Positions 3,166 to 56,937 of a DNA stretch of 61,672 nucleotides are shown piece by piece. Within the stretch, counting starts at the first letter, position 1; every line of letters begins with the position of its first letter. The stretch is taken from IMG/VR virus record IMGVR_UViG_3300028027_000003; one strand, written 5' to 3'. This DNA is from a virus. The translations under genes were made by a program, and so were the position numbers. The notes under the pieces are model-generated. The model saw nothing but the letters and a program-made list of their open reading frames with translations, was not told where the DNA came from and did no database searches.

Positions 3166-5008
3166 ATGTCTTTCCAATGTGAGCATCACCGCCCATACAA
3201 TTAATGCCAAACCATTTAGGCGCTTCAGTGAATGCTTCAATGGCTAACTCTTTAACTTCTTCTGCGTATTCATCTTTAACTACAACAGCTAGTTCATCAT
3301 GATAATGAATAGAGAAGTAGAATTGTATACCACGCTCTTGTAGCTTACGTTTAAGATAAACAATAGCTGCTTTACAAGTAACACCTTCAGCTGTCTGTAG
3401 TAGGTAGTTTAATACTTGATGACCAGAGCTAACAAAGATTAATCTACCATCAATACCACGGATGAAAGCTTTATCCTTACCAAACGCATTAGATGTTCTT
3501 TCAAACATACCATTGAGTTTGTCTTTAAGTTCTTTTAATCCTGGAATAGCACTTTCAAACTTATCTTGAGAGGCTTTACCAATGACAGCATCACGTTTAC
3601 CTGTAAGAATTAAACCAGATTTACCTGCACCTGCACCAAACAGATATGCGTATAGCCATGGTTTAGCTGTCTTACGAGAGCAAGGATAGATGGTACTTAG
3701 AATGTTAGCATTCTTTGTATGGACATCTCCATTAATTACTTCATTAGTGAATTCGTCATTACCAATATAATGGCATAAACCACGCATCTGGTTACCAGCA
3801 GAATCGGCTCCAACGATTGAGGTACCAGATTCGCATATGAGAAGACTTCGCATCTCTTTTCCGTATACTGAATCCACACTAGGCAGATTAGCAACAAGCT
3901 CATGCCTACAACGGAAAGTTGGTGTACCAATAGTCCACATACGACCATGAAGACGATTATCACGGGATCCTTTAACAGCTTCAATCCAACCCTCCAAGAT
4001 ACCTTTCCTTGATCTGATTGTATAGTATTCACTAACCAGCATAGCATCAGGGCCAAGCCGTTCAAGAGATGACTCGGTAATCTTAGGACTTTTATTAACA
4101 AACTTCCCATTGATTTTCTCCACATTCCATTCATCAGGTACCCAGCCAAGACTATACAACCAGTCTTTAACTACTTCAATACTACCTACTTTGCCTTGTT
4201 CAAAAGCAATACGACAATATGCACCATCAATAGGTCTATCTTCTTTACCTGACTCTTGTGTATATCCAAAATGTTTTACTGTTGCTACAGTATAGCATCC
4301 ATCCTTACGCCATGCAGGTTCTTTATACTCATCTGCTTTATCCATCTTTAAACAACGCATACCAATTCGAGGCTCAAGTACAGCTTCAATAGCATCAAGC
4401 TTATTATTGATCTGCATCAATAGCGTTTGAGCAGCAGCCATATCAAACATCCAACCTTTTTGTTGTATCTCTGATTCAATCTGAGCAAATTCCATCTCAA
4501 CATCCATACCTGTTTTGTACATAGGATGTTTGTTGATGATCTTAGTTGCTTCTTCTGTAAGTACCTTATAAACCTTTACATTAAGCTCTACATCTCGGAT
4601 ACAATATGTAAGCATTTCTTTACTGTATTTATCAAAGGTATTGAATTCTAATTTAGGAAACCCTAATTTAGAACCCCATCCTTCAAGACCATGCTTATGA
4701 TCTCGTTTATATTGATTAAGCTGAGACAATACCCAGGTATCAATTACCTTGGTGGTACTAGCAGGAGTCCATCCAGTGATATATTTGAGTACAGTAAAAT
4801 CATAGCCAATAATGTTGTGACCGTAAATAATGTCAGCAGTTTTAAGAAACTCAAGACCTTCTTGTAGAGATGGCAGTTCATTATCATAATCAGAAAAAGA
4901 ATAAATAGTTCCAGTATCAGAATCAATAGCTACCATTAGCCAAATAGTATCTACATTAGGCATAAGCCCGTTTGTTTCTATGTCTACACATAGCCTTAAT
5001 TTTTTCAT
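3149..5008 (-). CDS. Family A DNA polymerase with 3'-5' exonuclease domain (T7 gp5-like)
   Basis: ExoI CVDIETNGL, ExoII HNIIGYDFTVL, motif A GADSAGNQMRGL, motif B RKTAKPWLYAYLFGAG, motif C HYHDELAV. Confidence 0.9.
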   Translation of the reverse strand: MKKLRLCVDIETNGLMPNVDTIWLMVAIDSDTGTIYSFSDYDNELPSLQEGLEFLKTADIIYGHNIIGYDFTVLKYITGWTPASTTKVIDTWVLSQLNQYKRDHKHGLEGWGSKLGFPKLEFNTFDKYSKEMLTYCIRDVELNVKVYKVLTEEATKIINKHPMYKTGMDVEMEFAQIESEIQQKGWMFDMAAAQTLLMQINNKLDAIEAVLEPRIGMRCLKMDKADEYKEPAWRKDGCYTVATVKHFGYTQESGKEDRPIDGAYCRIAFEQGKVGSIEVVKDWLYSLGWVPDEWNVEKINGKFVNKSPKITESSLERLGPDAMLVSEYYTIRSRKGILEGWIEAVKGSRDNRLHGRMWTIGTPTFRCRHELVANLPSVDSVYGKEMRSLLICESGTSIVGADSAGNQMRGLCHYIGNDEFTNEVINGDVHTKNANILSTIYPCSRKTAKPWLYAYLFGAGAGKSGLILTGKRDAVIGKASQDKFESAIPGLKELKDKLNGMFERTSNAFGKDKAFIRGIDGRLIFVSSGHQVLNYLLQTAEGVTCKAAIVYLKRKLQERGIQFYFSIHYHDELAVVVKDEYAEEVKELAIEAFTEAPKWFGINCMGGDAHIGKTYAEVH

Positions 5009-56283: not shown

Positions 56284-56370
56284 TGGTGGATTTTCTAGGA
56301 GTCGAACCTAGTTGCCCCTAAGGGCTACAGATTTACAGTCTGCTGCAGTCGCCAATGCTGCTCAAAATCC
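56284..56370 (-). tRNA. trnY(GUA): tRNA-Tyr (anticodon GUA), long variable arm, CCA encoded
   Basis: Acceptor GGATTTT/AAAATCC, loop CTGTAAA, 87 nt with a class II extra arm, T arm CTAGG-TTCGACT-CCTAG. Confidence 0.85.
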
Positions 56371-56673
56371 TTGTTGTTTAGTTGTTGGTGGCTCCAATTT
56401 GCCTTGCCCCGCTAAGGTAAGCACACGCAGAGTCTTGTCTCAACCAAGGATTGCGTTTCCTTTGGCATAGCCACAGCGTCCTGTAGCGTTACGAACTTCA
56501 CACCAACACGGCTGGGGACTGTTCAGGTGGTCTAGGGCTTCTTCTCTCCCCACCTACGGCGTAGCATCCTTTCGGTCTAGCCCTCAGCCGCAATCCCCAT
56601 GCGTCTTGATGTTAAAGAAACACCCCCATAAAGAGGGTGTCGGGCCACAGATACGATCTTGTGGGGAATTAAA
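56371..56673 (-). ncRNA. Unclassified ~300-nt GC-rich structured RNA embedded in the tRNA array
   Basis: No ORF; GC far above genome; multiple hairpins and an 8-bp long-range pairing (56448-56455 with 56589-56596); co-oriented with the tRNAs downstream of the promoter at 56937. Confidence 0.5.
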
Positions 56674-56748
56674 TGGTTGCGGAGGAAGGATTCGCACCTT
56701 CGACTTCTGGATTATGAGTCCAGCACTCTACTACTGAGCTACTCCGCT
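56674..56748 (-). tRNA. trnM(CAU): tRNA with CAU anticodon (Met, fMet or Ile2), A1xA72 mismatch
   Basis: Anticodon arm CTGGA-CTCATAA-TCCAG, T arm GAAGG-TGCGAAT-CCTTC, CCA encoded. Confidence 0.8.
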
Positions 56749-56756
56749 ATATTCAT

Positions 56757-56831
56757 TGGTTGCGGAAACTGGATTCGAACCAGTAACCAAGGGATTATGA
56801 GTCCCCTGCTCTACCTTTAAGCTATCCCGCA
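56757..56831 (-). tRNA. trnM(CAU): Second, different tRNA with CAU anticodon
   Basis: Acceptor TGCGGGA/TTCCGCA, anticodon arm GGGGA-CTCATAA-TCCCT, T arm ACTGG-TTCGAAT-CCAGT, CCA encoded. Confidence 0.8.
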
Positions 56832-56839
56832 TTATGCAT

Positions 56840-56912
56840 TGGGTACTCGGTAATGGATTTAAACCATTATCTCTCAATTAATCGTTGATTGCTTTACTTA
56901 AGCTAACCGAGC
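56840..56912 (-). tRNA. Degenerate tRNA-like element (cloverleaf folds, non-canonical loops)
   Basis: Acceptor GCTCGGT/ACCGAGT, T arm AATGG-TTTAAAT-CCATT, anticodon loop CGATTAA with G33; anticodon assignment unreliable. Confidence 0.35.
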
Positions 56913-56915
56913 TTG

Positions 56916-56937
56916 TTCTCTATTAGGGGACGTCTGT
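56916..56937 (-). promoter_or_regulatory. Phage RNAP promoter candidate driving the tRNA/ncRNA array
   Basis: Minus strand reads ACAGACGTCCCCTAATAGAGAA; overlaps the thioredoxin stop codon. Confidence 0.65.

What the first reader, a model, noticed from the sequence alone, without database searches (positions are those of the whole stretch)
56371..56673. Unclassified ~300-nt GC-rich structured RNA embedded between phage tRNA genes
A ~300-nt stretch lies between tRNA-Tyr and the first CAU tRNA, on the same strand and downstream of the promoter at 56937. It has no ORF and a GC content far above the ~37-38% genome.

Structures visible by eye (minus strand):
- ccacaagat-cgt-atctgtgg hairpin.
- gacaccc-tctttat-ggggtgt hairpin followed by tttcttt (56615-56641), which looks like an internal attenuator or terminator.
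- gctacag-gacg-ctgtggc hairpin.
- An 8-bp long-range pairing, ggattgcg (56589-56596) with cgcaatcc (56448-56455).
- A duplicated CTAGACC motif.
- A 3' end reading ...ttggagccacca.

I could not match it to tmRNA, RNase P RNA, 6S or a group I intron by their hallmark motifs. Stable non-tRNA species inside phage tRNA clusters are known from T4 (species 1/2 RNAs), and large ornate RNAs such as ROOL and GOLLD often sit beside phage tRNAs. A new member of that poorly understood class is plausible.
Basis: seen in the sequence. Interest (0 to 1): 0.65.

Follow-up and report, generated by a model that had tools for sequence, protein, structure and literature searches.

The report
Modular tRNA-like phage RNA cassette
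The GC-rich gap between this phage's tRNA genes is one copy of a very common but uncatalogued family of freshwater-phage RNAs, in which a fixed hairpin and a fixed tRNA-style stem frame two structured inserts that differ freely from phage to phage.

Summary
Window 56371-56673 (minus strand) is non-coding, 55% G+C in a ~33% background, and structured. It matches no Rfam family.

It is not one 300-nt RNA. It has a 70-nt lineage-specific 5' part with two hairpins (56610-56664), then a 227-nt unit (56383-56609).

The unit belongs to a family found on several hundred IMG/VR phage contigs. It is almost absent from bacterial genomes and from cultured phages. Each unit has:
- a leader hairpin, ACG/CGU + UGGGGAUUG/CAGUCCCCA, with a variable apical slot;
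- a 7-bp tRNA-type acceptor stem, GUUGGUG/CACCAAC plus A, closing a second variable slot.

Both stems covary. The strand GUGUUGG can pair either with an upstream YYAACA or with the downstream CCAACA. Among 104 units, slot contents fall into ~70 sequence classes each and assort independently.

The most likely reading is a scaffold transcribed with the tRNAs and cut out by tRNA-processing enzymes. This step is inferred, not shown.

Two details are wrong: the 8-bp long-range pairing and the "CCA 3' end".

The parts
56645..56664 (-). 5' hairpin 1 (CCACAAGAU-CGU-AUCUGUGG), lineage-specific
   Evidence: Present in the sequence and in the MFE fold. It is identical in L052, the only relative that has it, so covariation gives no information.
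56610..56641 (-). 5' hairpin 2 (GACACCC-UCUUUAU-GGGGGUGU) followed by UUCUUUAACA. It looks like a terminator. It occupies the position where other arrays carry a GC-rich hairpin, or a tRNA 3' end, just before the scaffold.
   Evidence: The terminator-like scan hits it. It is identical in L052. Other loci carry an analogous hairpin before the first unit. Its likeness to rrn boxA was rejected.
56602..56609 (-). UCAAGACG: the 5' strand of the base helix of the leader hairpin. ACG pairs with CGU (P1). UCAAG can pair with GUUGG (extended P1, one G-G mismatch in this copy).
   Evidence: The MFE of every unit pairs ACG/CGU. The upstream 6-mer pairs with UGUUGG at 5-6 of 6 positions in 138/142 units. 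The extended helix is 96.6% paired, with 0/500 shuffles as good.
56591..56599 (-). P2 5' strand, UGGGGAUUG
   Evidence: It pairs with 56513-56521. Three P2 pairs show changes on both sides (GC to AU, CG, UA) across 60 distinct units. Further compensatory variants: UGAAGAUUG/CAGUCUUUA in L105 and UGAGGAUUG/CAGUCCUCA in MW202484.
56522..56590 (-). Slot 1 (apical insert of the leader hairpin), 69 nt.
   Evidence: The same insert class occurs in L131, L105, L191, L094 and L078. The second sub-hairpin has three pairs with changes on both sides. Across the family this slot is 20-111 nt with no shared sequence.
56513..56521 (-). P2 3' strand, CAGUCCCCA
56501..56512 (-). GC (3' side of the 2x2 internal loop), then CGU|GUUGGUG. 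This is the shared strand: CGU closes P1, and GUUGGUG is the 5' strand of the acceptor-type stem. U(-1)|G(+1) at 56508|56507 is the inferred RNase P site.
   Evidence: GUGUUGG follows the hairpin in 128/139 units that were selected without reference to it. In L129 the Rfam tRNA match begins exactly at this G. The GAUGG variants changed both partners.
56391..56500 (-). Slot 2 (cargo), 110 nt. It contains hairpin H1 at 56470-56487 (loop GACG), hairpin H2 at 56443-56466, and a 3' domain at 56391-56442.
   Evidence: The same cargo class occurs in L059, L137, L150, L068, L074, L095, L115 and L241. H1 and H2 each have several pairs with changes on both sides. No Rfam, tRNA or tmRNA match.
56383..56390 (-). 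CACCAAC, the 3' strand of the acceptor-type stem, plus A at the discriminator position
   Evidence: The 7-bp stem has three pairs with changes on both sides. One-sided changes are all wobble-preserving transitions on this strand. In tRNA-type cargos the T arm ends directly before it.
56371..56382 (-). ACUAAACAACAA spacer to tRNA-Tyr
   Evidence: It is identical at the end of the L052 array, before tRNA-Arg.

Best explanation
**What it is.** The element is a non-coding RNA cassette, co-transcribed with the phage tRNAs. It has two fixed parts, each enclosing a variable slot.

1. A leader hairpin: base helix ACG/CGU, a 2x2 internal loop, and the 9-bp helix UGGGGAUUG/CAGUCCCCA. Its tip carries slot 1.
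2. Directly abutting it, a 7-bp tRNA-type acceptor stem (G1-C72 ... G7-C66, discriminator A73, U at -1). This stem closes slot 2, the cargo.

**How it most likely works (inferred).**
- RNase P cuts at U(-1)|G(+1), window 56508|56507.
- The 3' side is trimmed after A73 (56383), and CCA is added.
- This releases a stable, tRNA-capped small RNA of about 125 nt.
- The leader hairpin stays as the 3' trailer of the upstream RNA.

During transcription the strand GUGUUGG first pairs with the upstream YYAACA (a long leader hairpin). It is later captured by the downstream CCAACA, which closes the cargo.

**Cassette behaviour.** The short fixed segments also act as junctions at which slot contents are exchanged between phages, probably by recombination. 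The family therefore behaves like a set of swappable RNA cassettes.

What the cargos do is not known. Decoys or binders for host factors are a guess.
For: **Shown here**
- Fold and covariation of both stems: 99.5% of cells paired, 6 pairs with double changes, 0/500 shuffles as good.
- The alternative extended helix: 96.6% paired.
- In the two GAUGG variants, both the upstream and the downstream partner changed to U.
- G-U pairs lie on the transcribed strand.
- The unit is on the same strand as adjacent tRNAs and as the downstream terminase genes (43 of 44).
- In 6-7 of 103 cargos a canonical D arm starts 2 nt after GUUGGUG and a T arm ends at CACCAAC.
- Rfam's tRNA model matches the cargos of L129 (44 bits, starting at G+1) and L076 (41 bits).
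- The largest cargo class has D-like and T-like loops that can kiss (GCUGA/UCAGC). ACUGA/UCAGU variants were seen by eye; this pairing was not formally counted.
- In GenBank MW202484.1 the module starts 0 nt after the CCA of a tRNA-Asn.
- Slots assort independently: 71 insert classes and 68 cargo classes in 104 units.
- The window and L052 share flanks but differ in both slots. L001 lacks the block, with a clean junction.

**From established knowledge**
- Bacterial RNase P needs a 7-bp acceptor stem and favours U(-1)/G(+1).
- CCA-less phage tRNAs are matured by 3' endonuclease trimming plus the CCA-adding enzyme.
Against: - There are no expression or end-mapping data.
- The window's own cargo has no D or T arm, and neither ARAGORN nor Rfam calls it tRNA-like. 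ARAGORN calls none of the 103 cargos.
- Nucleotides -1 to -3 are paired in P1, which should hinder RNase P.
- CCA is not encoded.
- Many arrays sit at the start of operons. Upstream promoter-like sites occur at 31% of arrays against 7% of control sites. An RBS plus start codon within 60 nt downstream occurs at 17% against 5.5%.
- Some modules have no cargo at all and run straight into an RBS (MW202484). This fits a cis-acting leader as well.
- Partner finding for the acceptor stem required pairing, so its '100% paired' figure is circular. Only the double changes count.
Confidence: 0.42

Rival explanations
1. The conserved hairpin with its GUGUUGG switch is a cis-acting leader. It would be an RNA element at the head of phage operons that controls read-through, processing or stability of the downstream transcript, for example as an RNase III-type site or a protective 5' hairpin. 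On this view the slots are tolerated passengers.
For: - In 44 of 88 loci the array lies just upstream of Sf6-type TerS and Terminase_3 TerL genes on the same strand.
- Promoter-like sites are enriched about 4-fold and terminator-like sites about 5-fold just upstream of arrays. RBS plus start codons are enriched about 3-fold just downstream.
- Modules without cargo run directly into an RBS and ATG in L225, L253, L232, L254 and in MW202484.
- Two mutually exclusive pairings of one strand are typical of RNA switches.
- The extended hairpin is about 19 bp long, the size of an RNase III substrate (established knowledge).
Against: - In the window the element is followed by two tRNAs, not by an mRNA start.
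- Units come in tandem.
- Slot contents are themselves conserved in classes with their own covariation, so they are not junk.
- No regulator protein co-occurs with the units.
Confidence: 0.25
2. This is a DNA-level cassette system resembling integron attC sites. The hairpin, with its inverted CCAAC/GUUGG boxes and variable centre, would be a folded recombination site, and the cargos would be mobile cassettes.
For: - The layout is the same as an attC site: two inverted boxes (RYYAAC ... GTTGGY), a second paired box, a variable centre of 20-111 nt, and arrays of site-cassette-site.
- Slots shuffle independently.
- The whole block is present or absent between close relatives, with a clean junction.
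Against: - GTTGGTG does not fit GTTRRRY at positions 6-7.
- P2 has no extrahelical bases.
- Wobble pairs lie on the transcribed strand, so the complementary strand would carry A-C mismatches.
- No tyrosine recombinase is among the recurrent neighbours within 6 kb.
- D and T arms in register with the stem make sense only in RNA.
- Both junctions of a slot recombine, unlike ORF-attC linkage. This rests on a single informative case.
Confidence: 0.1
3. The leader hairpin is a new self-cleaving ribozyme. It would free the 3' end of the upstream tRNA or the 5' end of the downstream RNA, as theta (HDV-like) ribozymes do next to phage tRNAs.
For: - It sits immediately 3' of a tRNA CCA in MW202484 and immediately 5' of tRNA-like cargos.
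- About 45 nt are strongly conserved.
- Ribozymes next to phage tRNAs are known (PMC10879173, title and abstract seen).
Against: - The helices are simply nested, with no pseudoknot.
- The only internal loop is 2x2, and its 3' side changes from GC to UU or AU in L105 and L191.
- The apical domain is hypervariable.
- No Rfam ribozyme family matches at E<=10.
Confidence: 0.06
4. The element is decayed tRNA genes and spacer sequence with no function of their own.
For: It lies in a tRNA cluster. A close relative does without it (L001).
Against: - Compensatory changes occur in four separate helices.
- The scaffold is conserved across phages with different terminase types.
Confidence: 0.03

Closest known systems
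tRNA-like non-coding RNAs (bacterial and phage YrlA/Y RNAs; the tRNA-like domain of tmRNA)
   Same: - Non-tRNA RNAs that use a tRNA-type acceptor stem or elbow.
- M. smegmatis YrlA is cut by RNase P and receives CCA (PMC4201824).
- Some are phage-encoded.
   Different: - There is no GNCGAA Ro-binding motif (sequence).
- Rfam's YrlA model matches only a flanking tRNA, at 24.6 bits against a cut-off of 69.
- ARAGORN finds no tmRNA.
- Only the acceptor stem is constant here. The body is replaced by about 70 unrelated sequence classes.
Stable RNAs in the phage T4 tRNA cluster (species 1 and 2), and GOLLD/ROOL next to phage tRNAs
   Different: - No match to the GOLLD or ROOL models, or to any other Rfam model.
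- The unit is about 130-300 nt, modular and tandem, with a short constant scaffold rather than a large conserved fold.
- The T4 species were not compared directly, because no sequence was at hand.
Integron attC / gene-cassette arrays
   Same: - A constant folded junction with inverted boxes and a variable centre alternates with unrelated cassettes.
- Contents are shuffled between relatives.
   Different: See the membership test. In short: the core sequence, the extrahelical bases, the folded strand and a neighbouring integrase do not fit. The cassettes are 40-200 nt structured RNAs, not ORFs.
Theta (HDV-like) ribozymes beside phage tRNAs (PMC10879173)
   Same: A small conserved RNA module placed directly at the end of a phage tRNA.
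   Different: It lacks the nested double-pseudoknot fold, has no Rfam HDV-type hit, and its internal loop is variable.
tRNA punctuation of polycistronic transcripts; engineered 'tRNA scaffolds' for expressing RNA
   Same: An RNA of interest is framed by a tRNA acceptor stem, so that tRNA enzymes release and stabilise it (own knowledge).
   Different: This would be a natural, phage-borne version with a dedicated leader hairpin. Processing has not been shown.

Membership tests
tRNA (Rfam RF00005 / ARAGORN) | 7-bp acceptor stem with a discriminator base | tested here: met
   GUUGGUG (56501-56507) pairs with CACCAAC (56384-56390), followed by A56383. Three pairs covary. The register is fixed by D and T arms in L129, L251 and others.
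tRNA (Rfam RF00005 / ARAGORN) | D arm, anticodon arm with a 7-nt loop, and T arm (cloverleaf) | tested here: not met
   There is no tRNA call or model match inside 56371-56673. ARAGORN of 103 family cargos. Only 6-7 of 103 have D and T arms.
tmRNA | tRNA-like domain plus a tag reading frame | tested here: not met
   ARAGORN finds none in the window. There is no Rfam match.
GOLLD, ROOL and other Rfam structured RNAs (RNase P, 6S, group I and II introns, ribozymes, riboswitches) | Match to the family covariance model | tested here: not met
   All 4227 families were searched. Nothing matches on the element at gathering score or at E<=10. Fifteen related loci give only tRNA hits.
YrlA / bacterial Y RNA | GNCGAAN0-1G Ro-binding motif near the 5' end, plus a tRNA-like domain | tested here: not met
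   The motif (PMC4201824) is absent from the sequence. The YrlA model scores 24.6 against a cut-off of 69, and only on a flanking tRNA.
YrlA / bacterial Y RNA | Encoded next to a Ro60 (rsr) gene | not tested
   The window's proteins were not screened for a TROVE domain. The immediate neighbours are a thioredoxin, a class II RNR and a RyR-domain protein.
HDV-like / theta ribozyme | Nested double pseudoknot (P1 and P2 interleaved) with a conserved catalytic C | tested here: not met
   The supported helices are nested or sequential. There is no HDV-type Rfam hit.
HDV-like / theta ribozyme | Self-cleavage | not testable with these tools
   This needs an in vitro assay.
Integron attC site | Core sites RYYYAAC ... 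GTTRRRY | tested here: not met
   The boxes here are RYYAAC and GTTGGTG. GTTGG fits, but positions 6-7 (T, G) do not fit R, Y.
Integron attC site | Extrahelical bases in the L box; the folded strand is the bottom strand | tested here: not met
   P2 is a gap-free 9-bp helix. G-U pairs lie on the strand that carries the tRNAs and downstream genes.
Integron attC site | IntI integrase nearby | tested here: inconclusive
   No recombinase is among the 25 most frequent neighbour clusters within 6 kb. Whole genomes were not examined.
Intrinsic terminator (hairpin 2 only) | GC-rich hairpin followed by a U tract | tested here: met
   The scan hits 56623-56636 plus UGUUUCUUUA. Function is untested.

The most novel reading that the evidence does not exclude
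The family is a phage-borne 'RNA cassette' system. A portable adaptor of about 45 nt (leader hairpin plus acceptor-type stem, with one strand that switches partners) would do two jobs. It would direct expression and release of whatever structured RNA sits in its two slots. It would also supply the short homologies by which phages trade those RNAs. The result would be a hypervariable library of small RNAs, for instance decoys or aptamers against host defence or host enzymes. This is functionally an integron for non-coding RNA, a kind of system not described before.
Probability: 0.25. Interest if true: 0.9.

Novelty: new variant of a known kind. Interest (0 to 1): 0.7.

Why it matters
- If the reading is right, freshwater phages carry a natural equivalent of the engineered 'tRNA scaffold', used to express a very diverse set of small structured RNAs (about 70 sequence classes per slot in about 100 units).
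- That would open a large, unexplored pool of phage RNA effectors.
- It would give a simple handle, a ~45-nt scaffold motif, for finding them in metagenomes.
- The two-partner strand (GUGUUGG) is a clean, testable example of programmed strand exchange in RNA folding or processing.
- Even on the most cautious reading, this is an abundant, covariation-supported RNA family that is missing from Rfam.

Tried and rejected
- **Known RNA families.** Rfam at gathering score and at E<=10 gives nothing on the element.
- **Similarity to cultured phages.** blastn of the 303 nt finds no match. The short scaffold queries find only MW202484.1.
- **tmRNA or a tRNA with an intron.** ARAGORN finds nothing, and no T arm precedes the 3' strand in the window copy.
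- **HDV-like fold.** I tried to map P1 to P4 by hand. The helices are nested, so I rejected it.
- **rrn boxA after hairpin 2** (UCUUUAACA, 56611-56619). It has four mismatches to the 13-mer. Sites with 3 or fewer mismatches are common in the window (54 found, 38.6 expected). Rejected.
- **Likeness to 16S rRNA helix 34** (GCAUGG..CAGCUCGUGUUGUG, recalled from memory). Rfam gives no rRNA hit, and betaproteobacterial 16S differs at these positions (also from memory). Treated as chance.
- **'NCCA' before the module as a general tRNA 3' end.** Only 41% of units have CCA there. It is literal in MW202484 only.
- **A dedicated protein partner.** No window protein recurs in more than 7 of 215 unit-bearing loci.
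- **Linkage of a cargo to the next hairpin** (integron-like). Only 12 tandem pairs were usable, with one informative case, which was unlinked.
- **Literature.** Five keyword searches and one search for the motif strings found no description. The supplement of the IMG/VR csRNA catalogue (PMC10690425) is not held, so an unnamed prior listing cannot be excluded.

Full report
**1. The observation**

On the minus strand, 56371-56673 lies between tRNA-Met(CAU) 56674-56748 and tRNA-Tyr 56284-56370. A second tRNA-Met, a tRNA-Arg and a further Rfam-only tRNA-like match lie nearby.
- G+C reaches 0.565, against 0.28-0.37 around it.
- No minus-strand ORF of 40 aa or more lies inside.
- The minus strand folds better than its shuffles (z = -2.3). 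The plus strand does not (z = 0.0).
- No Rfam 15 family matches the element at gathering score or at E<=10.

**2. Relatives**

blastn against 50,697 phage records finds nothing, and the phage itself has no close cultured relative. Loci fetched through the two flanking genes gave three informative cases.
- L052 has the same 70-nt 5' part, followed by two tandem units with different interiors.
- L001 is equally close but goes straight from the second tRNA to tRNA-Arg. Its junction is CCATTTAAT^AGGGTC.
- The block is therefore an accessory insertion between tRNAs.

Comparing the three units exposed short shared motifs: ACGCAUGG..., ...CAGUnCCCAGCCGUGUUGGUG and ...CACCAACAACUAA.

**3. A large family**

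About 85 of them carry the full upstream motif.
- An independent pattern that fixes only the hairpin (ACGCATGGGGATTG N35-65 CAGTCCCCAGCC) again hit the limit, with mostly new contigs.
- A 21-mer found only four hits in one genome for each of 185,579 bacterial and archaeal species. All four are contigs of 1.8-3.4 kb in lake MAGs: three Burkholderiales and one Flavobacterium.
- Among cultured or deposited phages, only MW202484.1 (Podoviridae sp., Manatee Spring) has it, unannotated.
- No paper in the library contains the motif strings.

**4. Anatomy of a unit**

The layout is: [hairpin or tRNA 3' end]-YYAACA-CG-CA-UGGGGAUUG-[slot 1, 20-111 nt]-CAGUCCCCA-GC-CGU-GUUGGUG-[slot 2, about 40-200 nt]-CACCAAC-A-AC(C/U)UA.

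On a 60-row scaffold alignment (variable slots masked), P1 + P2 + the GUUGGUG/CACCAAC stem are 99.5% paired. Six pairs changed on both sides, and 0 of 500 shuffles reach this.

GUUGGUG/CACCAAC is a tRNA acceptor stem in register.
- In L129, L251, L135 and others, a D arm (UAGCUCAG...) starts two bases after it and a T arm ends directly before CACCAAC.
- Rfam's tRNA model matches the L129 cargo from exactly that G.

Only 6-7 of 103 cargos are of this tRNA type, and ARAGORN calls none. The stem is therefore a tRNA-style cap on mostly non-tRNA bodies.

**5. One strand, two partners**

The six bases before CG (CCAACA, CUAACA, UCAACA, CCAAGA...) pair with UGUUGG at 5-6 of 6 positions in 138 of 142 units. 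This extends the leader hairpin to 8 + 9 bp (96.6% paired). The same GUUGG is the start of the acceptor stem, so the two helices exclude each other.

In the two units where GUUGG became GAUGG (L180, L223), both the upstream and the downstream partner carry the matching U. This argues that both pairings are selected.

Divergent copies (L105, L191) keep the fold but change P2 (UGAAGAUUG/CAGUCUUUA) and the 3' side of the internal loop (GC to UU or AU). The loop is therefore not a fixed catalytic or binding core, and part of the apparent invariance came from my exact search patterns.

**6. The slots**

- Slot 1 has no shared sequence.
- Among 104 units there are 71 slot-1 classes and 68 cargo classes. 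A given class of one slot sits with different classes of the other.
- The window's slot 1 recurs in L131, L105, L191, L094 and L078, and has a covarying sub-hairpin.
- Its cargo recurs in eight other loci, with two covarying hairpins.
- These two sets of loci do not overlap.
- The commonest cargo class has D-like and T-like loops that can kiss (GCUGA/UCAGC, with ACUGA/UCAGU variants). This was read and not formally counted.

**7. Context**

- The unit is always on the strand of adjacent tRNAs.
- In 44 of 88 loci it lies just upstream of Sf6-type small and Terminase_3 large terminase genes, on the same strand in 43 of 44.
- The window phage has a Terminase_6 enzyme 36 kb away. Here the unit sits beside thioredoxin, class II RNR and RyR-domain genes, so the family crosses phage lineages.
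- No window protein recurs near units elsewhere.
- Arrays often begin transcription units. Promoter-like sites lie upstream at 37/121 arrays against 32/436 control sites. Terminator-like hairpins lie upstream at 20/121 against 13/436. An RBS plus start codon lies within 60 nt downstream at 21/121 against 24/436.
- Some modules lack a cargo and run into an RBS.
- In MW202484.1 the module begins directly after the CCA of a tRNA-Asn and precedes the first CDS.

**8. Interpretation**

Shown:
- This is a real, abundant, phage-specific structured element that acts on the transcribed strand.
- It has a two-stem scaffold, a partner-switching strand, and interchangeable structured slots.

Inferred (confidence 0.42):
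- It is made as part of the tRNA transcript and cut out by tRNA enzymes. RNase P would cut at U-1|G+1, followed by 3' trimming after A73 and CCA addition. The cargo would end up as a tRNA-capped small RNA.
- The fixed segments double as recombination junctions.

Rivals:
- a cis-acting operon leader or RNase III-type processing and stability hairpin (0.25);
- an attC-like DNA recombination site (0.10);
- a new self-cleaving ribozyme (0.06);
- decayed tRNAs (0.03).

The cargo's own function is unknown.

**9.

The specifics need correction.
- It is a composite, not one ~300-nt RNA.
- The 8-bp long-range pairing conflicts with two covarying helices.
- The 'CCA end' is half of a stem.
- CTAGACC is not conserved.
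- The 5' 70 nt, including the terminator-like hairpin, is shared only with L052 and remains untested.

**10. Novelty and caveats**

I found no prior description, but three caveats apply.
- The IMG/VR csRNA catalogue (PMC10690425) could list the motif anonymously.
- No transcript data were available.

I rate it a new variant of a known kind (tRNA-like phage RNAs), interest 0.7. A cassette-system reading remains open that would be categorically new.

Noticed in passing
window 56844-56912 (- strand): Rfam's tRNA model matches here at 47.7 bits, but ARAGORN does not call it. The anticodon loop reads CGAUUAA, with no U33. The gene is absent from the relatives L052 and L001.
   Followed up: partly
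window 56915-56931 (- strand); L052 about 4262-4278; L001 about 3728-3744: The motif GTCCCCTAATAG(R)GAAC lies just before the first tRNA and is conserved in all three relatives. In L001 it lies after the thioredoxin stop codon. It loosely resembles a T7-type promoter core (TATAGGGA), a comparison from memory.
   Followed up: partly
window 56674-56748 and 56757-56831 (- strand): There are two CAU tRNAs. The first in transcription order (56757-56831) has GGG/CCC in the anticodon stem, like initiator tRNAs. The second aligns with a tRNA-Ile(GAU) in L001, so it may be a lysidine-type tRNA-Ile rather than tRNA-Met. A CAU tRNA also follows arrays in about 10 other loci.
   Followed up: no
L087, L094, L117, L189, L259, L263, L118, L208 (coordinates): A second recurrent motif...UGACANCCGGAAAGACGGNG..., often lies directly before the first unit. 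It is preceded by GGGNGAAAG. It may be another small structured element or cargo type.
   Followed up: no
L076 8825-8922 (-); L144 6068-6140 (-): ARAGORN reads two slot contents as odd tRNAs. One is a 98-nt tRNA with anticodon UUA (it would read the UAA stop) in slot 2. The other has a 4-base anticodon, CAAG, in slot 1.
   Followed up: no
L096, L226, L261: Some arrays end in a mini-hairpin in place of a cargo, followed by a clear intrinsic terminator (GGGGGUUCGCCCCCUUUUUUUU). This is consistent with the array being a transcript of its own.
   Followed up: partly
many loci, e.g. L078, L093, L108, L111, L122, L147: Units often lie within a few hundred bases of a contig end. The repeated scaffold probably breaks assemblies, so tandem arrays are likely under-counted.
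   Followed up: no
MW202484.1 41496-41762 (L267 1301-1567): This public record has an unannotated tRNA-Asn(GUU) followed at once by a cargo-less module, just before the CDS at position 1 of the circular record.
   Followed up: yes
L094 has one compensatory change (A-U for G-C) and one break. This was not formally tested.
   Followed up: partly
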